A stretch of DNA of 8,554 bases from a virus (taxonomy: Duplodnaviria; Heunggongvirae; Uroviricota; Caudoviricetes): IMG/VR virus record IMGVR_UViG_2609459863_000010, positions 1 to 8,554 of that record. The stretch is one strand, 5' to 3'. Below the pieces are notes generated by a model. The model was not told the origin of the DNA. It was given only the letters and a program-made list of their open reading frames with translations, and did not search any database. The position numbers and the translations under genes were made by a program. Positions 1,475 through 8,554 of the stretch are shown here, piece after piece (positions within the stretch are counted from its first letter, which is position 1; every line of letters begins with the position of its first letter).

Positions 1475-1499
1475 AAAAAAGGGCATTTCTGCCCTTTTT
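1475..1499. terminator. Bidirectional intrinsic terminator shared by Q (+) and the convergent membrane-protein gene (-)
   Basis: AAAAAA, then GGGCA-TTTC-TGCCC hairpin, then TTTTT. The A-run/hairpin/T-run reads as a terminator on both strands. The stop of the minus-strand gene (1498-1500) overlaps the T-run. Confidence 0.7.
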
Positions 1500-1941
1500 A
1501 AATGTGGGGGAGTATCCAGTTTACTTTTCTCCATGTAAAGGCAAAAGTTATTACTGAAATGATAAGAAGAGATAAAGATTCGATAATTAAAATAAATTCT
1601 ATTTTTTCTCCATGTAACAATGTCTTTTCATTGGCAAACATTGCTATCAAAGCAATAACGCATGCCGTAATTAAAGATGCACCTGCGGTTAATAGATTTA
1701 CAATAATAACTTGAAGTATGTTGTTGTTTTTTAATGCTTTTATTATTCCATTTGAGTTTTCGCTAGCAGCACTAAAAATTGATATTGTGGCTAAAATAAA
1801 ACCAAATAAAATACCGGATACAGTTGAAATAACCCCGGAGGCTGTAAGTATGTCAGCATGCCCCATCTGAGGGATATACCTCAGTAGGAACAAGGTGCAA
1901 AAAACACTTACAATCAGGTTTCTTAAGTATTTCAATAACAT
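1498..1941 (-). CDS. RexB-like small integral membrane protein (about 4 predicted TM helices); putative membrane effector of an abortive-infection pair
   Basis: 147 aa, strongly hydrophobic with about four helical segments. Same size class as lambda RexB (144 aa). The LFLLRYIPQMG segment resembles the recalled lambda RexB LLFRHYIPG. ATG at 1941 lies 3 nt after the upstream gene's stop (1945-1947), indicating translational coupling. AT-rich. Confidence 0.72.
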   Translation of the reverse strand: MLLKYLRNLIVSVFCTLFLLRYIPQMGHADILTASGVISTVSGILFGFILATISIFSAASENSNGIIKALKNNNILQVIIVNLLTAGASLITACVIALIAMFANEKTLLHGEKIEFILIIESLSLLIISVITFAFTWRKVNWILPHI

Positions 1942-1944
1942 ATC

Positions 1945-2886
1945 CTATACCTTCTTTTTGCTGATATCGTATTGCTTAAGGTATTCATTGTTATCAATTT
2001 TAGCAGAAATCATGGCTTGCAGAACATCACTATCAGTGCCATAACCATTAACGGTATATATGTTTTTTTCTGAAATGAGTACCTGATCAAGAAGACTTTG
2101 TTCAACGGTATTTTTGGGCTGTGTTACTGCCGCTTTTTTTACAATTCCCGGCATTTTTTCAAGGAGTTCTTTAATACCATCCTTAACGAGATCTGATAAA
2201 TAACCTTTGACTTTTACTCTCCCTGATGCACGTCCCCTTAGATTTAACTTGAGACGTGTTCCACCCAGCCCTACCATCATATTTACCAGTTCCTTAGAAA
2301 ATGAACTATTTAGCTGGTAATTTGTTGCATCAAAGTTCCTGGGAGCAGCCAGGACAATATCACAACTTCTCAAAGTACTTCCTGTTTCAAGTAGCTCTTT
2401 GACGCTCTCTTTTTTCCAGATGGCTTGGAATGAAAAGTTATTTCCAGGATTACCACTCTGGCTGTAAAGCAGATAAGCTAAATCCGATTCTTTCGGCCCA
2501 AGATGATTTTGAGTTAATATTAAAATATCACTATCGTAATAATATAAAAAATAGGTTCTTTCGACTATGTATTTTTTATCATCTAGTGGTATGTTGTGCT
2601 CATTCCAGTGTTCATCACCAATATAAGGAAGGAGATACTCTTCTCGTGAGCATGACATGTAGCCGAAGAAATATTTAGCTTTTGTATCTTTATTTATAAA
2701 AGCTATTTTTAACTTTTTATTTCTATAGATGGTATCAAAATGATTATTCGTAACGGTTACGCAAGTATTATACAGATTTTCAATTGCTTGCTTAGCAACT
2801 GAATGGCTGCGGATAGTCCCAGAACTGCTGGTGTAAAAACCAATTTTAAGTTTTTTTTGTTTCTTTGATTGCGCAATAGTAGCCAT
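1945..2886 (-). CDS. RexA-like cytoplasmic protein; putative sensor/activator partner of the downstream membrane protein
   Basis: 313 aa, no TM segments. Local resemblance to recalled lambda RexA: KIGFYTSSS vs KNGFYATYRS near the N-terminus, GPKESDLAYLL vs GPTTSDLTDFL mid-protein, CDIVLAAPRNF vs LDIVIKPKFK. AAGG lies 7 nt upstream of ATG 2886 on the minus strand. AT-rich relative to flanks. Confidence 0.75.
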   Translation of the reverse strand: MATIAQSKKQKKLKIGFYTSSSGTIRSHSVAKQAIENLYNTCVTVTNNHFDTIYRNKKLKIAFINKDTKAKYFFGYMSCSREEYLLPYIGDEHWNEHNIPLDDKKYIVERTYFLYYYDSDILILTQNHLGPKESDLAYLLYSQSGNPGNNFSFQAIWKKESVKELLETGSTLRSCDIVLAAPRNFDATNYQLNSSFSKELVNMMVGLGGTRLKLNLRGRASGRVKVKGYLSDLVKDGIKELLEKMPGIVKKAAVTQPKNTVEQSLLDQVLISEKNIYTVNGYGTDSDVLQAMISAKIDNNEYLKQYDISKKKV

Positions 2887-3513: not shown

Positions 3514-4572
3514 ATGCTTAATACTGTAAAAATATCCAGTTGTGAGTTAATCAACGCCGACTGCCTGGAATTTATCCGGTCGTTACCCGAAAATTCTGTT
3601 GACCTGATAGTCACGGACCCGCCGTACTTTAAAGTGAAGCCCGAGGGCTGGGATAACCAGTGGAAGGGCGACGATGATTACCTGAAGTGGCTGGACCAGT
3701 GTCTGGCGCAGTTCTGGCGGGTGCTGAAACCTGCCGGAAGTCTTTACCTGTTCTGTGGTCATCGCCTGGCATCTGATATCGAAATCATGATGCGTGAACG
3801 CTTCAGTGTGCTGAACCATATTATCTGGGCGAAGCCGTCCGGACGCTGGAACGGATGCAACAAGGAAAGCCTGCGGGCGTATTTCCCCGCCACAGAGCGC
3901 ATTCTGTTCGCGGAACATTATCAGGGGCCGTATCGTCCGAAAGATGCCGGGTATGAGGCGAAGGGCAGGGCACTGAAACAGCATGTGATGGCCCCGCTGA
4001 TTGCTTACTTTCGTGATGCGCGCGCTGCCCTGGGGATAACGGCAAAACAGATTGCAGATGCCACAGGAAAGAAAAACATGGTGCCGCACTGGTTCAGTGC
4101 CAGTCAGTGGCAGCTACCGAACGAAAGCGATTATCTGAAATTACAGTCGCTGTTTGCCCGGGTGGCAGAAGAGAAACATCAGCGCGGGGAACTGGAAAAG
4201 CCACACCACCAGCTGGTCAGCACATACAGTGAGCTGAACCGGCAGTATATGGAACTGCTGAGTGAATATAAAAATTTGCGGCGGTATTTCGGTGTGACGG
4301 TGCAGGTGCCGTACACCGATGTGTGGACGTATAAACCGGTGCAGTACTATCCAGGGAAACATCCGTGCGAAAAACCGGCAGAAATGCTGCAGCAGATAAT
4401 CAGCGCAAGTAGTCGTCCTGGTGATCTGGTTGCGGATTTCTTCATGGGGTCGGGTTCGACAGTCAAAGCCGCGATGGCGCTGGGGCGTCGTGCTACAGGC
4501 GTTGAGCTGGAGACTGAACGTTTTGAGCAGACGGTCAGGGAAGTTCAGGATTTAGCCAGTCAGAACGGATGA
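3514..4572 (+). CDS. Beta-class DNA methyltransferase (N6-adenine or N4-cytosine; N6_N4_Mtase family), apparently orphan
   Basis: 352 aa. Motif IV DPPY (IVTDPPYF) is near the N-terminus and motif I FxGxG (DFFMGSGST) near the C-terminus, the circularly permuted order that defines beta-class amino-methyltransferases. About 200 aa between them would form the target-recognition region. No restriction endonuclease gene is adjacent. Confidence 0.88.
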   Translation: MLNTVKISSCELINADCLEFIRSLPENSVDLIVTDPPYFKVKPEGWDNQWKGDDDYLKWLDQCLAQFWRVLKPAGSLYLFCGHRLASDIEIMMRERFSVLNHIIWAKPSGRWNGCNKESLRAYFPATERILFAEHYQGPYRPKDAGYEAKGRALKQHVMAPLIAYFRDARAALGITAKQIADATGKKNMVPHWFSASQWQLPNESDYLKLQSLFARVAEEKHQRGELEKPHHQLVSTYSELNRQYMELLSEYKNLRRYFGVTVQVPYTDVWTYKPVQYYPGKHPCEKPAEMLQQIISASSRPGDLVADFFMGSGSTVKAAMALGRRATGVELETERFEQTVREVQDLASQNG

Positions 4573-4612: not shown

Positions 4613-4688
4613 GGCCCTTTAGCTCAGTGGTGAGAGCGAGCGACTCATAATCGCCAGGTCGCTGGTTCAAATCCAGCAAGGGCCACCA
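4613..4688 (+). tRNA. tRNA-Ile2 (anticodon CAU, lysidine-type, reads AUA); would be scored as tRNA-Met by anticodon alone
   Basis: 76 nt. Acceptor GGCCCTT/AAGGGCC, D-arm GCTC...GAGC, anticodon loop CTCATAA with CAT at 4646-4648, T-arm GCTGG-TTCAAAT-CCAGC, discriminator A, encoded CCA. Resembles E. coli ileX/ileY and the ileZ of Stx phages. Confidence 0.9.
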
Positions 4689-4695
4689 TCACATA

Positions 4696-4772
4696 CCGCC
4701 ATTAGCTCATCAGGAAAGAGCGCCAGCCTTCGAAGCTGGTTGCGCGGGGTTCGAGTCCTCGATGGCGGTCCA
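4696..4772 (+). tRNA. tRNA-Arg (anticodon UCG)
   Basis: 77 nt. Acceptor CCGCCAT/ATGGCGG, anticodon stem CCAGC/GCTGG with loop CTTCGAA (TCG at positions 34-36), T-loop TTCGAGT, encoded CCA. Confidence 0.88.
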
Positions 4773-4785
4773 TTATCGGTATTCT

Positions 4786-4862
4786 GCGTTGTTAGCTCAG
4801 CCGGACAGAGCAATTGCCTTCTAAGTAATCGGTCACTGGTTCGAATCCAGTACAACGCGCCA
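4786..4862 (+). tRNA. tRNA-Arg (anticodon UCU, reads AGA/AGG)
   Basis: 77 nt. Acceptor GCGTTGT/ACAACGC, anticodon loop CTTCTAA (TCT at 34-36), T-arm GGTTCGAATCC, discriminator G, encoded CCA. Confidence 0.88.
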
Positions 4863-4875
4863 CACTTATTTTCCT

Positions 4876-4902
4876 GGCTCGCTTCGGCGGGCCTTTTAAT
4901 TT
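4876..4902 (+). terminator. Intrinsic terminator closing the tRNA cluster
   Basis: GGCTCGC-TTCG-GCGGGCC, a 7-bp stem with one G-U pair and a UUCG tetraloop, followed by TTTTAATTT. Confidence 0.7.
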
Positions 4903-5168
4903 GCTGAAAAAGAAAACATCAGATGGTTAGTCGGGTATCAGTTATCTGGTGAAATTTTTAAATACCTCACAATTCAGGAAGGTGATTATTGTTTTTCTGG
5001 TGGGGAATTTGTTAAAAATCACTCCGCATGATGAATCCCCCTAAGCGGTGGGGCGACTGGCAAGGCTCCATTACGATGGTCACAATCCGCAGATTTAGTT
5101 TGCCAGGCTGAATCTACCGGGAGGCACCCGGCATCATGCATAATGTGGAAAATTGGAAATGTATTCAG

Positions 5169-5200
5169 GCCTCTACGAATTTTAGTAGAGGCTTTTTTTT
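5169..5200 (+). terminator. Intrinsic terminator of module A
   Basis: GCCTCTAC-GAATTTTA-GTAGAGGC, a perfect 8-bp stem, followed by TTTTTTTT. Confidence 0.75.
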
Positions 5201-5204
5201 GAGT

Positions 5205-5231
5205 AAAAAAAGCCCGTCTATGGCAGCGGGC
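5205..5231 (-). terminator. Minus-strand intrinsic terminator, back-to-back with the module A terminator
   Basis: On the minus strand: GCCCG-CTGCCATAGA-CGGGC followed by TTTTTTT (+ strand AAAAAAAGCCCG...CGGGC). Confidence 0.55.
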
Positions 5232-5582
5232 AAGTATGCATGAGAATACATTTTTTATTATTTGCCTGAAAATAGTACCCTGAGGTTATTGTTGTTTTCA
5301 ACAGGCTGATTTGTGTTCTGATCGGGGATGTGACAAGGAACATACGTTCTTATGTGAAAATGTTAAATTCTTCACATTTCAGTGAGTTGAGTGTTGATTT
5401 CGTTTTATCTTTTTTGTTAAAAAAGTATTGCATGGTGAATCCCCCTGTGCGGTGGGACGACTGGTGACAACAATTCATCATCCGTGATGACCCAGAAGAG
5501 ATCGCGGGTTCAGTGGCACCGGGCTGAACTCACCGGGAGGCACCCGGCACCATGTTCATGGTGATACAGAAATGCGGCTTCA

Positions 5583-5606
5583 GCCCCTCTCCGGAGGGGC
5601 TTTCTT
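5583..5606 (+). terminator. Intrinsic terminator of module B
   Basis: GCCCCTC-TCCG-GAGGGGC, a perfect 7-bp GC-rich stem, followed by TTTCTT. Confidence 0.65.
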
Positions 5607-5612
5607 ATGGAC

Positions 5613-5640
5613 AAAAAAGCCCGCGCTGGGAGACGCGGGC
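5613..5640 (-). terminator. Minus-strand intrinsic terminator, back-to-back with the module B terminator
   Basis: On the minus strand: GCCCGCG-TCTCCCAG-CGCGGGC followed by TTTTTT. Confidence 0.55.
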
Positions 5641-5707
5641 GGCAAGGAATAAACAATAAAACGTGAAGTAATATTTCAGCTGGCGAATAATACCCCATAG
5701 TAATCAC

Positions 5708-5731
5708 TCTGCGCAACTGCGCGGCCTTTTT
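5708..5731 (+). terminator. Intrinsic terminator-like hairpin upstream of the esterase gene
   Basis: CTGCGC-AACT-GCGCGG, a 6-bp stem with one G-U pair, then CC and TTTTT. Confidence 0.45.
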
Positions 5732-5833
5732 CGTATTGCGGGCTGTAGTCTCCCTTCTGCCATTGTCCTGTAACTTCCGGACTTCAGCTCGCTCCTTATC
5801 TGACTCACAACATTATCCCGACCGGGAGGATTC

Positions 5834-7813
5834 ATGACATTTAAACACTACGATGTGGTCAGGGCGGCGTCGCCGTCAGACCTTGCGGAGCGACTGACAC
5901 AAAAACTGAAGGAGGGGTGGCAGCCATTTGGCAGCCCTGTCGCCATCACGCCTTATACCCTGATGCAGGCCATTGCGGCGGAAGGTGATGTCACCACACC
6001 TGTGGTGGTGAAGCCGTCGGATGGAGAAGGCACAGTTATCAGCACCACCAGCGAACCGGAGTATTACTTTGTTGTTGTTCTGGCGGGGCAGTCAAACTCA
6101 ATGTCTTTTGGGGAAGGGCTGCCGCTGCCGGAGACATATGACCGTCCGGACCCGCGTATTAAACAGCTGGCGCGTCGCAGTACGGTGACGCCGGGTGGTG
6201 CCGCCTGTAAATATAACGACATCATTCCGGCAGACCACTGTCTGCATGATGTGCAGGATATGAGTAACCTGAATCATCCTCATGCAGACCTGAGTAAGGG
6301 ACAGTACGGTTGTGTGGGGCATGCTCTGCATGTTGCCAAAAAGCTGCTGCCGTTTATGCCTGCGAATGCGGGTATCCTTCTTGTTCCATGTGGCCGTGGC
6401 GATTCGGGATTTACTGCGGGGGCCGAGGGGGCGTTTAACGAAGCGTCGGGAGCGACCGCAGGCTCGTCCCTGTGGGGGGCGGATAAACCGCTGTATCATG
6501 ACCTGGTCAGCAGAACCCGTGCGGCCCTGAAGAAAAATCCGAAGAACGTGCTGTTATCAGTGATCTGGATGCAGGGAGAAAAAGATGTCAGTTCGGGGAG
6601 ACATGCAGAACACAATGCGCTTTTCCTTGCCATGGTAAATCAGTTCCGTACGGAACTGGCAGATGTGGCAGAGCAGTGTACTGGCGGGACAACGGCCAGC
6701 GTCCCGTGGATTTGCGGTGATACCACGTACTACTGGAAGGAAAGGTATGCAGCGCCGTATGAGGCGGTTTACGGTGGGTATAAAGGCAAAGCTGCGCAGA
6801 ATATTCACTTTGTGCCGTTGATGACGGATGAGCATGGTGTGAATGTGCCGACAAACGAGCCGTCAGAAGATCCGGACATTATCCCGGCGGGATACTATGG
6901 CGCTGCGTCACGCACTGCCAGTAACTGGACGTCAGCCAATCGTAAAACGCACTTCAGTTCATGGGCGCGAAGAGGCCTTGTTTCAGACCGTCTGGCAGGT
7001 GCCATTTTGCAGTACGCCGGGCGGACATTATCGTTCCTTACCGGGCAGAGCGCACCGCTGTCGGGTGGTACAACTCCTGTCAGTCCGGGGACACCGGATG
7101 TTGAGAAACCGCAGGATGGCGGTGTTGCTGGTACTGGTCATGATGAGGCCGTGAGCAGTACCAGGACGGTGGCTGAATATGATGCGAACAGTGGAAATGG
7201 TGTATGGACAGAGCAGCAGTGGGGGGCTGCCGGTGGCAAAGGCACTGTGACTGATGACGGTGGACGGAAAGCGCTGCGACTGGAAAAACAGCCCGGTAAA
7301 CTGACGTCCTGGAAAATGTTCCGTACTGTTGCAGTGGAGGAGGCAAAAAATCTTCTCAGCAAGGGGGGTGAAATTGCCGTACGGTTCAAAATTCCGGATG
7401 GAAGCGAACTGGTGAACGGACAGTTTGTCTTTGGTCTCTACTGGCCGGTGTCGCAGTGGGCGTCAGGCGCGGCAGCAAACAGTATGCTGGCATCATTCTT
7501 CCTTCAGACGGATGCATCAAATCTGAATCTTATGCACCACAAGGGCACGTCGAATGCACAACTGGGCACATTTGGTGCGTTTGACCATAACTGGCATACG
7601 GTTGTTTTCCGCTTTGCGGGAAATAACAGCGAAAGAGTCGTTCCGGTGATTGATGGTGCAGAGCAGACGGCGTTTGACCTTGTGATGTGGACAAATGATG
7701 GCTTTACAGCAGATACGCTGACGCTGACAGATATCACGGGGGCAAAAGCGACGTATCCTGTACTGCTTGATACGGTCACTGTCAAAGTGAAAGAAAGCGA
7801 AGCAGCGGCATAA
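5834..7813 (+). CDS. nanS: Prophage sialate O-acetylesterase (NanS-p type): N-terminal DUF1737, SASA/SGNH-like esterase core, C-terminal extension
   Basis: 659 aa. N-terminus MTFKHYDVVRAASPSDLAE... matches the recalled NanS-p/DUF1737 start. The catalytic-serine block VVLAGQSNSMS is the GQSN motif of SASA esterases. RBS GGGAGGA at 5824-5830. In Stx phages this gene sits immediately downstream of stxB. Confidence 0.9.
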   Translation: MTFKHYDVVRAASPSDLAERLTQKLKEGWQPFGSPVAITPYTLMQAIAAEGDVTTPVVVKPSDGEGTVISTTSEPEYYFVVVLAGQSNSMSFGEGLPLPETYDRPDPRIKQLARRSTVTPGGAACKYNDIIPADHCLHDVQDMSNLNHPHADLSKGQYGCVGHALHVAKKLLPFMPANAGILLVPCGRGDSGFTAGAEGAFNEASGATAGSSLWGADKPLYHDLVSRTRAALKKNPKNVLLSVIWMQGEKDVSSGRHAEHNALFLAMVNQFRTELADVAEQCTGGTTASVPWICGDTTYYWKERYAAPYEAVYGGYKGKAAQNIHFVPLMTDEHGVNVPTNEPSEDPDIIPAGYYGAASRTASNWTSANRKTHFSSWARRGLVSDRLAGAILQYAGRTLSFLTGQSAPLSGGTTPVSPGTPDVEKPQDGGVAGTGHDEAVSSTRTVAEYDANSGNGVWTEQQWGAAGGKGTVTDDGGRKALRLEKQPGKLTSWKMFRTVAVEEAKNLLSKGGEIAVRFKIPDGSELVNGQFVFGLYWPVSQWASGAAANSMLASFFLQTDASNLNLMHHKGTSNAQLGTFGAFDHNWHTVVFRFAGNNSERVVPVIDGAEQTAFDLVMWTNDGFTADTLTLTDITGAKATYPVLLDTVTVKVKESEAAA

Positions 7814-7827
7814 CAGGCGAAAAAAGA

Positions 7828-7870
7828 GCCAGCGCCGGAGGGAAAACATATAAAGGAGCCGGGCGCTGGC
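7828..7870 (+). repeat. Inverted repeat (11/12-bp arms, 20-nt spacer) immediately after the esterase stop
   Basis: GCCAGCGCCGG ... CCGGGCGCTGGC with spacer AGGGAAAACATATAAAGGAG. No T-run follows, so it is not a canonical intrinsic terminator. Confidence 0.4.
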
Positions 7871-7960
7871 CAAACAAGGCAGCAAATATTGCTTAACTCT
7901 TATGTCCGTAGTTTTGTACCTTTTTTTACTGGATGTTTCAAATAATAACGGTAAGAAATT

Positions 7961-8155
7961 ATGACGTTAGTTCATCAGTTCATGCTGTACTTCTGTACGG
8001 CGGTATGCGTGCTGTATCTTCTTTCGGGTGGGTACAGGGCAGTGCGCGATTTCTGGCGCAGGCAGATTGATAAAAGGGCCGCAGAGAAAATCAGCGCCAG
8101 TCAGTCAGCCGGAGCAAAAACAGAAGCCCCACTCATTCCGGAACAACCTTCTTAA
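7961..8155 (+). CDS. Small hypothetical membrane protein (single predicted TM segment)
   Basis: 64 aa with N-terminal hydrophobic stretch LVHQFMLYFCTAVCVLYLLSGGY and a basic/charged tail. Weak RBS. Confidence 0.45.
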   Translation: MTLVHQFMLYFCTAVCVLYLLSGGYRAVRDFWRRQIDKRAAEKISASQSAGAKTEAPLIPEQPS

Positions 8156-8180
8156 TAACCCCTTTCAACGAGAAAATCCT

Positions 8181-8471
8181 ATGTCAGAAATAAAATCGCT
8201 GGTCACTGCTGAGGCAGTGAAGGAAGTCCTGCGCTCTGAAGAAGTCCGGAGCGCACTGAAACAGCAACTTCGGCAGAACCTTGAGGCGCGTCTTGATGCA
8301 GAAGTGGATGCCATTCTGGATGAATTGCTTGGTGCACAGCCGGAACCATCCCCGGAACTGCTTCCGGAACCACAGGCGGAAGATGTCACCACGGAAAATG
8401 GTGATATTCAGCCGGAGCCACCGGTGACGGATATGACAGACACACAACCCGAACCGGGCACAATGCTGTAA
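8181..8471 (+). CDS. Hypothetical acidic protein with a Pro/Glu-rich (PEP-repeat) C-terminal tail
   Basis: The ORF track gives 8028-8471, but the 5' part overlaps the preceding ORF. ATG 8181 (MSEIKSLVTAE...) is in frame and follows that ORF's stop. A strong terminator lies immediately downstream. Confidence 0.55.
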   Translation: MSEIKSLVTAEAVKEVLRSEEVRSALKQQLRQNLEARLDAEVDAILDELLGAQPEPSPELLPEPQAEDVTTENGDIQPEPPVTDMTDTQPEPGTML

Positions 8472-8481
8472 CGGCGGGGCA

Positions 8482-8519
8482 GGGCCATCAGTAAAGAGCT
8501 GGTGGCCCTTTTGTTGTTG
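8482..8519 (+). terminator. Intrinsic terminator
   Basis: GGGCCATCAG-TAAAGAG-CTGGTGGCCC, a 10-bp stem with one G-U pair, followed by TTTTGTTGTTG. Confidence 0.75.
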
Positions 8520-8554
8520 TGAGCTTCCGAGTACGGGAGACGGGGTATGTACCA

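What the first reader, a model, noticed from the sequence alone, without database searches (positions are those of the whole stretch)
5011..5640. Two tandem paralogous candidate sRNA genes with compensatory changes in a closing helix
Modules A (about 5011-5231) and B (about 5415-5640) share, in order: a TGtTAAAAA extended -10-like element, a conserved 5' block, a variable middle, a conserved 3' block containing the hairpin CCGGG-AGGCA-CCCGG, and a terminator. The two conserved blocks end in inverted repeats that differ between copies by compensatory substitutions: GCATGATG/CATCATGC in A versus GCATGGTG/CACCATGT in B. Preservation of pairing under substitution is the classic signature of selection on an RNA helix. 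The predicted transcription start, about 7 nt after the -10, falls exactly at the 5' arm in both copies. The reading frame after the conserved ATG is not conserved between copies, which argues against a peptide.
Basis: seen in the sequence. Interest (0 to 1): 0.75.

Follow-up and report, generated by a model that had tools for sequence, protein, structure and literature searches.

The report
Two tandem STnc100 prophage sRNA genes
The two repeated modules are real small-RNA genes, but they belong to an already catalogued prophage sRNA family (Rfam STnc100, also called EcOnc27 or sRNA103, related to PasD) that sits where Shiga-toxin phages carry their toxin genes, so the finding is a correct rediscovery and not a new kind of element.

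Summary
Modules A and B are full-length matches to Rfam RF02076 (STnc100), at 122 and 140 bits against a gathering score of 47. The window is the late region of an E. coli lambdoid prophage, ordered Q, methylase, three tRNAs, the two modules, sialate esterase. Module A occupies the slot where Stx2 phages carry stx2AB. Module B is the homologue of the sRNA found about 75 nt after stx2B (EcOnc27/sRNA103), which binds Hfq. The closing helix is real: 90% of cells pair across 101 family members, and all eight pairs show changes on both sides. The predicted start at the 5' arm matches the RNA-seq 5' end of the relative PasD2 (172 nt). No peptide is conserved. First, the family is already known. Second, the second hairpin of each module is the terminator of a convergent minus-strand sRNA. 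In A this is AsxR/AgvB-like; in B it is 95% identical to an EPEC Hfq-associated sRNA. Third, the core also carries a short P3 helix and a pseudoknot, neither marked in the Rfam consensus. The pseudoknot shows compensatory changes between A and B. Tandem copies recur in other prophages, but this exact pair is rare (6 of 5,426 E. coli genomes). Novelty: already known. Interest: low to moderate.

The parts
5010..5018 (+). Extended -10-like promoter element TGTTAAAAA of module A. The hexamer TAAAAA (5013-5018) ends 7 nt before G5026.
   Evidence: Sequence. Best promoter-like site for this copy in the family scan.
5026..5203 (+). STnc100-family sRNA, copy A (about 178 nt). P1 5026-5033/5132-5139. 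P2 5038-5041/5050-5053. P3 5054-5055/5088-5089. Pseudoknot strand X 5057-5063 pairs with the P4 loop 5100-5106. Variable loop 5064-5087. P4 5091-5098/5108-5115. P5 5117-5121/5127-5131. Tail 5140-5166. Terminator 5167-5194 plus a U run.
   Evidence: Rfam RF02076, 122.1 bits, model positions 1-206. The MFE fold reproduces P1, P2, P4, P5 and the terminator. Terminator scan. Family covariation.
5205..5264 (-). Convergent minus-strand small RNA, AsxR/AgvB-like (anti-sRNA type). It has the conserved 3' part GUAUUCUCAUGCAUACUUGCCCG...CGGGCUUUUUUU and a different 5' variable part.
   Evidence: Full-length but sub-threshold matches to RF02703 AsxR (20.7 bits) and RF02702 AgvB (15.9 bits). The same convergent layout in 933W carries a bona fide AsxR at 88 bits. 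Weak evidence: below the gathering score.
5272..5301 (-). Promoter-like site TTGAAA-18-TACTAT on the minus strand, placed to start the AsxR/AgvB-like RNA near 5264.
   Evidence: Consensus scan. Pattern match only.
5415..5423 (+). Extended -10-like element TGTTAAAAA of module B. The hexamer (5418-5423) ends 6 nt before G5430.
   Evidence: Sequence. Family promoter scan.
5430..5608 (+). STnc100-family sRNA, copy B (about 178 nt), homologue of the sRNA that follows stx2B in Stx2 phages (EcOnc27/sRNA103). P1 5430-5437/5548-5555. P2 5442-5445/5454-5457. P3 5458-5459/5503-5504. X 5461-5466 pairs with the P4 loop 5517-5522. Variable loop 5467-5502. P4 5506-5513/5524-5531. P5 5533-5537/5543-5547. Tail 5556-5581. 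Terminator 5582-5601 plus UUCUU.
   Evidence: Rfam RF02076, 140.3 bits. 91% identical to the post-stx2B region of Stx2a phages. Terminator scan.
5613..5793 (-). Convergent minus-strand sRNA (about 180 nt), antisense to the leader of the esterase gene. It has the seed-like CCUUGCC next to its terminator (stem 5619-5640).
   Evidence: 95% identity over 5600-5840 to the E2348/69 locus of the RIL-seq sRNA E2348C_1409.E2348C_1408.IGR (1444797-1444978, minus strand; EHEC homologues EcOnc08/21/42). Minus-strand terminator and a promoter-like site at 5840-5812. The ends are transferred from the EPEC estimate and were not measured here.
4613..4862 (+). Context: three phage tRNA genes (CAT read as Ile2/Met, Arg-TCG, Arg-TCT) followed by a terminator at 4876-4893. 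In Stx2 phages the same trio precedes stx2AB.
   Evidence: ARAGORN. Rfam. Annotation of L001, L002 and 933W.
5834..7813 (+). Context: DUF1737/SASA/DUF6645 sialate O-acetylesterase (nanS-p type). It is the conserved ORF downstream of the moron slot.
   Evidence: Pfam. RefSeq annotation.

Best explanation
Modules A and B are two paralogous genes of the STnc100 sRNA family (Rfam RF02076; EcOnc27 in Sakai, sRNA103 in EDL933; PasD1/PasD2 are diverged relatives). They lie in the 'moron' slot of a lambdoid prophage late region, downstream of Q/PR' and the phage tRNAs and upstream of the sialate esterase.

**Anatomy (shown here).** Each module is an independent transcription unit. An extended -10 promoter starts transcription at the first base of the closing helix P1. 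The RNA of about 175-180 nt folds into a conserved core in which P1 encloses P2, a 2-bp P3, P4 and P5. The 6-7 nt that follow P3 pair with the apical loop of P4 to form a pseudoknot. This arrangement loops out a 24-36 nt hypervariable segment. After the core come a variable single-stranded tail of about 26 nt and an intrinsic terminator.

**Mechanism (inferred from homologues).** Hfq binds the 3' part, meaning the tail plus the terminator. The tail, and possibly the variable loop, base-pairs in trans with host and prophage mRNAs or sRNAs. The conserved core acts as a stabilising scaffold. Two copies with different loops and tails would give two target specificities.

**Convergent partners.** Each module is paired with a minus-strand sRNA: AsxR/AgvB-like for A, and EcOnc08/21/42-like for B. 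This is the convergent sRNA pair layout described by Tree et al. 2014. In a lysogen the units are expressed from their own promoters. After induction, Q-modified polymerase should read through their terminators.
For: **Family membership.** Both modules give full-length CM matches at 122 and 140 bits against a gathering score of 47.

**Context.** Q (PF06530), methylase, tRNAs and SASA esterase are all present. stx2AB sits exactly where module A lies, and one STnc100 copy follows stx2B.

**Structure.** P1 pairs in 90% of cells, P5 in 99.8%, and P3 pairs 34-99 and 35-98 in 100% and 94% with up to 6 pair types. None of 500 shuffles reaches the observed values. When copies were found through the 5' block alone, the P5 variants were compensatory: CCTGG/CCAGG and TCGGG/CCCGA. 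For the pseudoknot, matched X/loop duplexes average -9.2 kcal/mol against -5.4 +/- 0.23 for permuted partners, with 0 of 2000 permutations as low. That is as strong as P1 and P4. A and B differ by two compensatory pairs in the pseudoknot: CUGGCAA/UUGCCAG against CUGGUG/CACCGG.

**Start site.** The -10 is positioned consistently across promoter classes, and the PasD2 5' end falls on the G of the arm.

**Expression and Hfq.** EDL933 has 11 transcribed copies and one Northern blot. The EcOnc27 Hfq CRAC peak covers the 80 nt just before AsxR, and one EcOnc27 Northern species is destabilised without Hfq. The PasD seed UGUGAG lies next to the terminator, and RIL-seq chimeras map to the 3' 50 nt. sRNA103 overexpression raises fimZ and espA transcripts.

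**Convergent partners.**
Against: - No expression data exist for this particular prophage, and RefSeq annotates nothing over the modules.
- The EcOnc27 Northern sizes (about 235/247 nt) exceed the roughly 172 nt promoter-to-terminator distance.
- The role assigned to the conserved core (scaffold) is a guess. Its loops and junctions are nearly invariant from Pantoea to E. coli, which is more than a passive scaffold would need.
- In a fixed column register the pseudoknot pairs in only about 57-67% of cells, because the register shifts by 1 nt between subfamilies. Its support therefore rests on the alignment-free test.
- Covariation cannot say whether P4 and the pseudoknot form together or alternate.
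- The minimum-free-energy fold of module B prefers an alternative hairpin that uses the 3' arm.
- The module A partner matches AsxR/AgvB only below threshold.
Confidence: 0.85

Rival explanations
1. The conserved pseudoknotted five-helix core is itself the functional part. It would be a specific binding module for a protein, a small ligand or a conserved RNA partner, for example a phage or host factor or a defence or anti-defence component. The variable loop and tail would be secondary. On this reading STnc100 RNAs are a structured-RNA class and not ordinary seed-plus-Hfq sRNAs.
For: - The core sequence is nearly invariant across Enterobacterales genera, while the promoter, loop, tail and terminator all change.
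- The invariant positions include unpaired ones: AAUC, the P2 loop GCGG and the P5 loop AGGCA.
- The junction is compact, with linkers of 4, 0, 1, 1 and 0 nt, plus a pseudoknot.
- Tandem arrays of 3-5 copies exist.
- Published seeds lie outside the core.
Against: - No partner is known.
- No Rfam riboswitch or ribozyme family matches, and ARAGORN does not call the modules tRNA-like.
- PasD2, a validated Hfq sRNA, has lost half of P5 and the X segment, so the full core is dispensable for at least that relative.
- Hfq and target data already explain an sRNA role.
Confidence: 0.1
2. The modules encode a short peptide or are dual-function RNAs. Translation would start at the ATG in the 5' arm (MxNPPxRWxDW...), or at the ATG in the 3' arm that follows the GGGAGG of P5.
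For: - An ATG lies in both arms, and the first 11 codons are similar in A and B.
- Some EDL933 STnc100 copies have ribosome coverage values of 1.5-3.2.
- P5 contains a Shine-Dalgarno-like GGGAGG.
Against: - Across 159 copies the arm codon is ATG in only 56.
- ORF length ranges from 0 to over 100 codons.
- Variability is highest at codon position 1 (0.51 bits) and lowest at position 3 (0.11), the reverse of coding sequence.
- No Shine-Dalgarno sequence precedes the 5' ATG, which sits 2 nt from the predicted start and inside helix P1.
- The ATGs follow from the palindromic CATG in the helix.
Confidence: 0.03
3. The paired arms are terminal inverted repeats of a small mobile element (MITE-like), or the units are only transcription insulators or terminators of the late operon with no RNA function of their own.
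For: - There are many copies per genome (11 in EDL933).
- Copies lie in recombination-prone moron slots.
- Convergent terminators lie inside a Q-dependent operon.
Against: - The arms have no flanking direct repeats: CACTCC/ATAATG for A and GTATT/TCATG for B.
- The conserved promoter and terminator lie outside the arms.
- Arm variation preserves pairing through strand-specific G-U wobbles.
- Copies occupy the same syntenic slot and not random sites.
- Homologues are stable, Hfq-bound RNAs with defined targets.
Confidence: 0.02

Closest known systems
STnc100 (Rfam RF02076), equal to EcOnc27 of E. coli O157 Sakai Sp5 and sRNA103 of EDL933, the sRNA encoded about 75 nt downstream of stx2B
   Same: - Full-length covariance-model matches.
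- The same promoter element, P1, P2, P4, P5, tail and terminator.
- The same slot between the moron or tRNAs and the esterase gene.
- The same convergent partner layout.
- Module B is 91% identical to the copy in Stx2a phages.
   Different: - Two copies lie in tandem with no stx genes. Module A takes the place of stx2AB.
- The variable loops and tails differ from 933W/Sp5, so the targets probably differ.
- Module B's convergent partner is not AsxR. It is the longer EcOnc08/21/42-type sRNA.
PasD1/PasD2 of EPEC E2348/69 (Pearl Mizrahi 2021; Zhu, Shabalina and Storz 2026 preprint)
   Same: - The same promoter and 5' arm (GCAUGGUGAAUCC...).
- The same position directly upstream of the SASA esterase (PasD2).
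- 172-173 nt, abundant in Hfq RIL-seq, with the seed in the 3' tail next to the terminator.
   Different: - PasD2 lacks the 3' half of P5 and the X/pseudoknot segment, and has a shortened P2 loop.
- BLAST does not link PasD to STnc100 according to the preprint.
- The tail and seed sequences are different.
AsxR and AgvB anti-sRNAs (Rfam RF02703, RF02702; Tree et al. 2014)
   Same: - They are encoded in the same moron slot as the convergent partner of an STnc100-type gene.
- Module A's minus strand carries the conserved 3' region of this group.
   Different: - They lie on the opposite strand, are 51-60 nt long and lack the structured core.
- The window copy scores below the gathering threshold and has a different 5' variable region.
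Tandemly duplicated sRNAs such as OmrA/OmrB or PrrF1/PrrF2
   Same: Adjacent paralogous sRNA genes with conserved and variable parts, each with its own promoter and terminator.
   Different: - Those are core-genome sRNAs with a conserved seed and simple hairpins.
- Here the conserved part is a large structured core and the presumed seeds are the variable parts.
- This is a resemblance in layout only. Homology was not tested.

Membership tests
STnc100 (Rfam RF02076) | Covariance-model score at or above the curated gathering score (47 bits) over the full model | tested here: met
   A: 122.1 bits. B: 140.3 bits. Both cover model positions 1-206 of 206.
STnc100 (Rfam RF02076) | Closing helix enclosing the P2, P4 and P5 hairpins, followed by a terminator hairpin | tested here: met
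   CM alignment. The MFE fold of A reproduces these helices. Pair counts on 101 sequences.
STnc100 / EcOnc27 | Location in a lambdoid prophage late region, in the moron slot 3' of PR', next to the conserved esterase ORF | tested here: met
   Q at 1097-1474, tRNAs, and esterase at 5834-7813. Synteny with Stx2 phages and 933W.
STnc100 / EcOnc27 / PasD | Discrete transcript of about 170-250 nt that binds Hfq | not testable with these tools
   Known only for homologues. No expression data exist for this locus.
Convergent sRNA pair of Tree et al. 2014 | A second sRNA gene on the opposite strand, converging on the first and with its own terminator | tested here: met
   Minus-strand terminators at 5214-5233 and 5619-5640. 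B's partner is 95% identical to an EPEC RIL-seq sRNA. A's partner aligns full-length to AsxR/AgvB.
AsxR / AgvB (RF02703 / RF02702), for the minus strand of module A | Score at or above the gathering score (63 / 56 bits) | tested here: not met
   20.7 and 15.9 bits. Only the conserved 3' region is shared, so it is filed as AsxR/AgvB-like and not as a member.
tRNA-like element | Recognised as tRNA or tmRNA by a tRNA finder | tested here: not met
   ARAGORN reports only the three upstream tRNAs.
MITE / small mobile element | Terminal inverted repeats flanked by target-site duplications | tested here: not met
   No direct repeats flank the arms. The promoter and terminator lie outside the arms. 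Pairing is maintained through G-U wobbles.
Small protein gene | Conserved ORF whose substitutions concentrate at third codon positions | tested here: not met
   ORF lengths range from 0 to over 100 codons. Entropy is 0.51 at position 1, 0.23 at position 2 and 0.11 at position 3.

The most novel reading that the evidence does not exclude
STnc100 RNAs are more than Hfq sRNAs with a hairpin scaffold. Their near-invariant five-helix, pseudoknotted core would be a dedicated structured-RNA module that binds a specific partner (protein, ligand or RNA). It would present a hypervariable loop, making it a programmable display scaffold that prophages across Enterobacterales multiply in tandem arrays. The P3 helix and the X/P4-loop pseudoknot reported here are absent from the Rfam consensus shown, and no pseudoknot is mentioned in the 2026 preprint.
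Probability: 0.12. Interest if true: 0.6.

Novelty: already known. Interest (0 to 1): 0.25.

Why it matters
As a discovery it adds little. The family has been in Rfam for years, and its EHEC and EPEC members have been detected by Hfq CRAC, RIL-seq, Northern blots and RNA-seq.

Three points have some value:

- **Annotation gap.** The locus is unannotated in RefSeq although it holds up to four sRNA genes in 800 bp, at the site where Shiga-toxin phages carry stx. Sequence variants in the stx2-linked copy have been reported as predictors of haemolytic uraemic syndrome.
- **Tandem pair.** This prophage carries two STnc100 paralogues, with different variable loops and tails, in place of a toxin. This is a natural example of sRNA diversification by duplication within a moron slot.
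- **Structure.** The family-wide analysis adds a covarying 2-bp P3 helix and a pseudoknot to the accepted secondary structure. It also shows that the core is conserved far beyond E. coli. That raises the question of what the core does, since published seeds lie outside it.

Tried and rejected
- **Other Rfam families.** A permissive E-value scan of 4860-5840 and 7700-8554 found nothing credible on the + strand apart from STnc100. A weak OmrA-B hit on the minus strand (21.8 bits, E = 0.17 over the region) was treated as chance.
- **Fixed-register pseudoknot counts.** On an alignment with the variable loop excised (A3), the pseudoknot and P4 pair in only about 57% of cells, because loop length and X offset shift by 1-2 nt between subfamilies. 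Selecting sequences by P4 register raised this only to 61-67%. I therefore relied on the alignment-free test of matched against permuted duplex energy.
- **Custom covariance model.** I considered building one to realign the pseudoknot. I rejected it because a covariance model cannot represent the pseudoknot, so the register problem would remain.
- **Genome-contig scan.** The 16-base 5' block returned about half chance matches in unrelated phyla. These were filtered out by requiring the 3' block.
- **Peptide, MITE and tRNA-like readings.** All were tested and rejected.
- **PADLOC on the two reverse ORFs next to Q.** No hits.
- **Not done.** I ran no protein-database, structure-prediction or metagenome searches because the element is non-coding. 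IpeX was not compared.
Full report
**1.

| Element | Module A | Module B |
|---|---|---|
| TGTTAAAAA | 5010-5018 | 5415-5423 |
| 5' arm | GCATGATG, 5026-5033 | GCATGGTG, 5430-5437 |
| Hairpin CCGGG-AGGCA-CCCGG | 5117-5131 | 5533-5547 |
| 3' arm | CATCATGC, 5132-5139 | CACCATGT, 5548-5555 |
| + strand terminator | 5167-5202 | 5582-5606 |

A pairwise alignment gives 77% mean column identity, with conserved 5' and 3' blocks around a variable middle. The A-U to G-C exchange in the closing helix is real. Module B also has a G-U at the outermost pair.

**2. Both modules belong to a known sRNA family**

Both modules are full-length matches to Rfam RF02076, 'Gammaproteobacterial sRNA STnc100'. B scores 140.3 bits (5400-5612) and A scores 122.1 bits (4996-5204), against a gathering score of 47.

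The window is the late region of an E. coli lambdoid prophage. Its gene order is:
- DUF968, 99-1094
- antiterminator Q (PF06530), 1097-1474
- a DNA methylase, 3514-4572
- three tRNAs, 4613-4862
- the two modules
- a DUF1737/SASA/DUF6645 sialate esterase, 5834-7813

The 4900-5700 stretch is 99.9% identical to E. coli DETEC-S792, where RefSeq annotates nothing over the modules.

In Stx2a phages the same methylase and tRNA trio is followed by stx2AB. A single STnc100 copy (160 bits) lies after stx2B, and then comes the esterase gene. So module A sits where the toxin genes sit in those phages. Module B is the homologue of the post-stx2B copy, at 91% identity.

Phage 933W shows the canonical layout. 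STnc100 scores 207.7 bits on the + strand and is followed directly by AsxR at 88.1 bits on the minus strand.

**3. What the literature says**

- Tree et al. 2014 (PMC4104026) described 'convergent sRNA pairs' in the moron insertion site 3' of PR' in several Sakai prophages. In Sp5, EcOnc27 and EcOnc02 (AsxR) lie 3' of stx2B.
- Their supplementary table puts the EcOnc27 Hfq crosslinking peak on the 80 nt just before AsxR. Northern species are about 235/247 nt, and the larger one is destabilised without Hfq.
- Paganini et al. 2025 equate EcOnc27 with sRNA103 of EDL933 and with the Infernal call STnc100. They note that overexpression raises fimZ and espA transcripts, and that sequence variants within this sRNA predict HUS.
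- EDL933 has 11 STnc100 copies, all transcribed, and one was confirmed by Northern blot (PMC5331693).
- A 2025 paper places STnc100 75 nt downstream of stx2 and detects it in outer membrane vesicles.
- The 2026 preprint of Zhu, Shabalina and Storz concludes that PasD1 and PasD2 of EPEC share an ancestor with STnc100. It states that the function of the Pas sRNAs has not been elucidated.
- Pearl Mizrahi et al. 2021 give PasD1 and PasD2 as 173 and 172 nt and rank them among the sRNAs with most Hfq RIL-seq interactions. Their seed UGUGAG lies next to the terminator, and chimeras map to the 3' 50 nt.

**4.

I collected copies by exact-pattern scans of viral contigs using the 3' block and of one genome per species using the 5' block. 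This gave 173 copies, of which 145 have unique cores. They come from E. coli, Salmonella, Klebsiella, Enterobacter, Kosakonia, Raoultella, Citrobacter, Pantoea, Superficieibacter and others.

About half of the genome-scan hits, all in unrelated phyla, lacked the 3' block and were discarded as chance.

Results on 101 representatives below 92% identity (alignment A2):
- P1 pairs in 90.2% of cells, and all eight pairs show changes on both sides.
- P5 pairs in 99.8%, and P2 in 88.7%.
- No shuffle out of 500 reaches the observed values on any measure.
- Sliding the partner by 1-3 columns drops pairing to 44-52%.
- In the six inner P1 pairs, G-U wobbles (25 cells) outnumber all other mismatches (10 cells). 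This asymmetry is expected for an RNA read from the + strand and not for DNA inverted repeats.
- Among copies found through the 5' block alone, P5 is CCGGGAGGCACCCGG in 61 of 65. The exceptions include the compensatory variants CCTGG...CCAGG and TCGGG...CCCGA.

**5. Two structural features absent from the Rfam consensus**

- **P3.** The C and the next base after P2 pair with the two bases that precede the C before P4. Columns 34-99 pair in 100% of cells (CG 88, UA 7, UG 6). Columns 35-98 pair in 94% with six pair types.
- **Pseudoknot.** The 6-7 nt that follow P3 (X) are complementary to the apical loop of P4 (X'). The helix sequence differs between subfamilies: CUGGUG/CACCGG, CUGGCAA/UUGCCAG, CCAGUC/GACUGG, CUAGAC/GUCUAG, UAAUGAC/GUCAUUG, GAUACC/GGUAUC, UUAACC/GGUUAA and others.

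In an alignment-free test, the X window of each sequence was folded against its own P4-loop window and against those of the other 100 sequences. Matched pairs average -9.2 kcal/mol. Permuted pairs average -5.4 +/- 0.23, and none of 2000 permutations is as low. This is the same order of effect as for P1 (-11.4 against -8.0) and P4 (-8.8 against -5.2).

In a fixed column register the pseudoknot pairs in only 57-67% of cells, because the register shifts by a base between subfamilies. The column-level evidence is therefore weaker than for P1.

The geometry looks feasible by inference. X' is contiguous with the 3' strand of P4, and the 1-3 nt linker from the 5' strand of P4 would have to cross the deep groove of a 6-7 bp helix. 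Covariation cannot tell whether P4 and the pseudoknot coexist or alternate.

The resulting picture is a junction of P1, P2, P3, P4 and P5 with linkers of 4, 0, 1, 1 and 0 nt. The variable 24-36 nt segment is looped out between X and P3.

**6. Start site, length and coding potential**

- The best sigma-70-like site upstream of each of 159 unique copies has its -10 hexamer ending 9-12 nt before the GTGAATC anchor in 92 cases. That is 4-7 nt before the first base of P1. This holds across unrelated promoter sequences, and a reversed-sequence control is scattered.
- The published RNA-seq 5' end of PasD2 (741157) maps onto the G of GCAUGGUG.
- The predicted lengths of A and B are about 178 nt, and the family median estimate is 167 nt. 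PasD is 172-173 nt. The 235/247 nt reported for EcOnc27 is unexplained.
- The ORFs that start in the arm are 27 codons in A and 11 in B. Across 159 copies the arm codon is ATG in 56 and GTG in 80. ORF length ranges from 0 to over 100 codons.
- Per-site entropy is 0.51, 0.23 and 0.11 bits at codon positions 1, 2 and 3, which is the reverse of a coding pattern.

**7.

The second hairpin of each module is preceded by an A run and lacks a following T run. It is a terminator for the minus strand.

- **Module A.** The minus strand from 5264 to 5205 aligns over the full length of the AsxR and AgvB models. It shares their conserved 3' region (GUAUUCUCAUGCAUACUUGCCCG...CGGGCUUUUUUU) and has a different 5' variable part. 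The scores are below threshold, at 20.7 and 15.9 bits. A promoter-like TTGAAA-18-TACTAT lies at 5301-5272.
- **Module B.** The minus strand from 5840 to 5600 is 95% identical to the E2348/69 locus of the RIL-seq sRNA 'E2348C_1409.E2348C_1408.IGR'. That RNA is about 182 nt, its EHEC homologues are EcOnc08/21/42, and its target motif GGCA(A/G)GG is complementary to CCUUGCC. Transferring the EPEC coordinates places the window copy at about 5793 to 5613, antisense to the esterase leader.

The 800-bp interval therefore probably holds four sRNA genes arranged as two convergent pairs.

**8. How it most likely works**

*Shown here:* family membership, the helices, the promoter and terminator geometry, and synteny.

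*Taken from homologues:* independent transcription, Hfq binding on the 3' part, a seed in the tail next to the terminator, and trans-acting effects on host and virulence transcripts.

*Inferred:*
- A and B act in the same way but on different targets, because their tails and loops differ.
- The core acts as a stabilising scaffold.
- Q-modified polymerase reads through the four terminators after induction.

One post-hoc lead: module B's loop carries ACAACAAU (5467-5474). The same 8-mer occurs in the GcvB-binding variable region of the AgvB consensus.

**9. Rivals**

- A peptide is contradicted.
- A MITE is contradicted by the absence of target-site duplications, by the promoter and terminator lying outside the arms, and by the wobble asymmetry.
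- A pure insulator role does not explain the promoters or the Hfq and target data for homologues.
- The most interesting alternative is that the core is a partner-binding module in its own right. Its unpaired positions are nearly invariant from Pantoea to E. coli, while published seeds lie outside it. Against this, PasD2 is a validated sRNA that has lost half of P5 and the X segment, and no known riboswitch, ribozyme or tRNA-like model matches.

**10. Novelty and verdict**

The sRNA family, its location and its convergent partner are all published, so the finding is already known.

The exact A+B arrangement is rare, covering at least 80% of the query in 6 of 5,426 complete E. coli genomes. Tandem STnc100-type copies do recur elsewhere: pairs about 484 nt apart in L021, L045, L065 and L091, four copies in L012, and arrays of 3-5 copies at about 253-257 nt spacing in L022, L035, L078 and Superficieibacter electus L186.

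The P3 helix and the pseudoknot are not in the Rfam consensus printed. No pseudoknot is mentioned in the 2026 preprint. They are a modest structural addition that needs chemical probing.

Noticed in passing
window 7818-7905, minus strand: Between the esterase stop and the DUF1378/DUF826 ORFs lies a minus-strand unit with GCCAGCGCC followed by a terminator (…GGCGCUGGCUCUUUUUU). It resembles PasA/PasC of EPEC, which occupy the same position. It aligns loosely to the E2348/69 PasA region, and no Rfam family matches.
   Followed up: partly
window 1498-2886, minus strand: Two reverse-oriented ORFs (147 aa with no Pfam hit, and 313 aa DUF6731) are inserted between Q (1097-1474) and the methylase. 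They look like a moron of unknown function. PADLOC gives no hit. The closest E. coli match (DETEC-S792) has a different module (RusA, DUF1133) in the corresponding region upstream of the methylase.
   Followed up: partly
L022:376-996, L035:1728-2341, L078:4383-5457, L186:6366-7006: Arrays of 3-5 STnc100-type genes lie at about 253-257 nt spacing in viral contigs and in Superficieibacter electus. Each copy has its own upstream region, and their variable loops differ.
   Followed up: partly
window 5548-5564: In module B the 3' arm CACCAUG can also pair with a downstream CAUGGUG (5558-5564), and the minimum-free-energy fold prefers that hairpin over P1. Similar CAUG(G/A)UG repeats follow the 3' arm in several Stx-phage copies. 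This may be an alternative conformer or a duplication remnant.
   Followed up: no
window 5467-5474: Module B's variable loop contains ACAACAAU. The same 8-mer occurs in the GcvB-binding variable region of the AgvB consensus. This is a post-hoc lead that copy B might pair with GcvB.
   Followed up: no
window 5709-5733, + strand: A further + strand terminator-like hairpin (CTGCGCAACTGCGCGG plus a T run) lies between module B and the esterase gene, inside the minus-strand sRNA. It is conserved in 933W and Stx2a phages. It resembles the terminator of PasD-type copies (GGCTGCGCATGGCGCGGCCTTTTTTTT).
   Followed up: no
L243:2237-2483 (933W) and Sakai 1268411-1268490: The published Northern sizes for EcOnc27 (about 235/247 nt) are 60-75 nt longer than the promoter-to-terminator distance of about 172 nt, whereas PasD1/2 are 172-173 nt. 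Read-through into the convergent AsxR unit or an upstream start could explain the difference.
   Followed up: no
window 4985-5009 and 5386-5414; L002:2974-3002: About 35 nt upstream of the -10 are conserved among E. coli copies (TTGACnGTTGyCTG...). In Stx-phage copies this region forms the palindrome TGACAG-TTGC-CTGTCA. The TTGACA lies about 25 nt from the -10, too far to serve as a -35, so it may be a regulator binding site.
   Followed up: no
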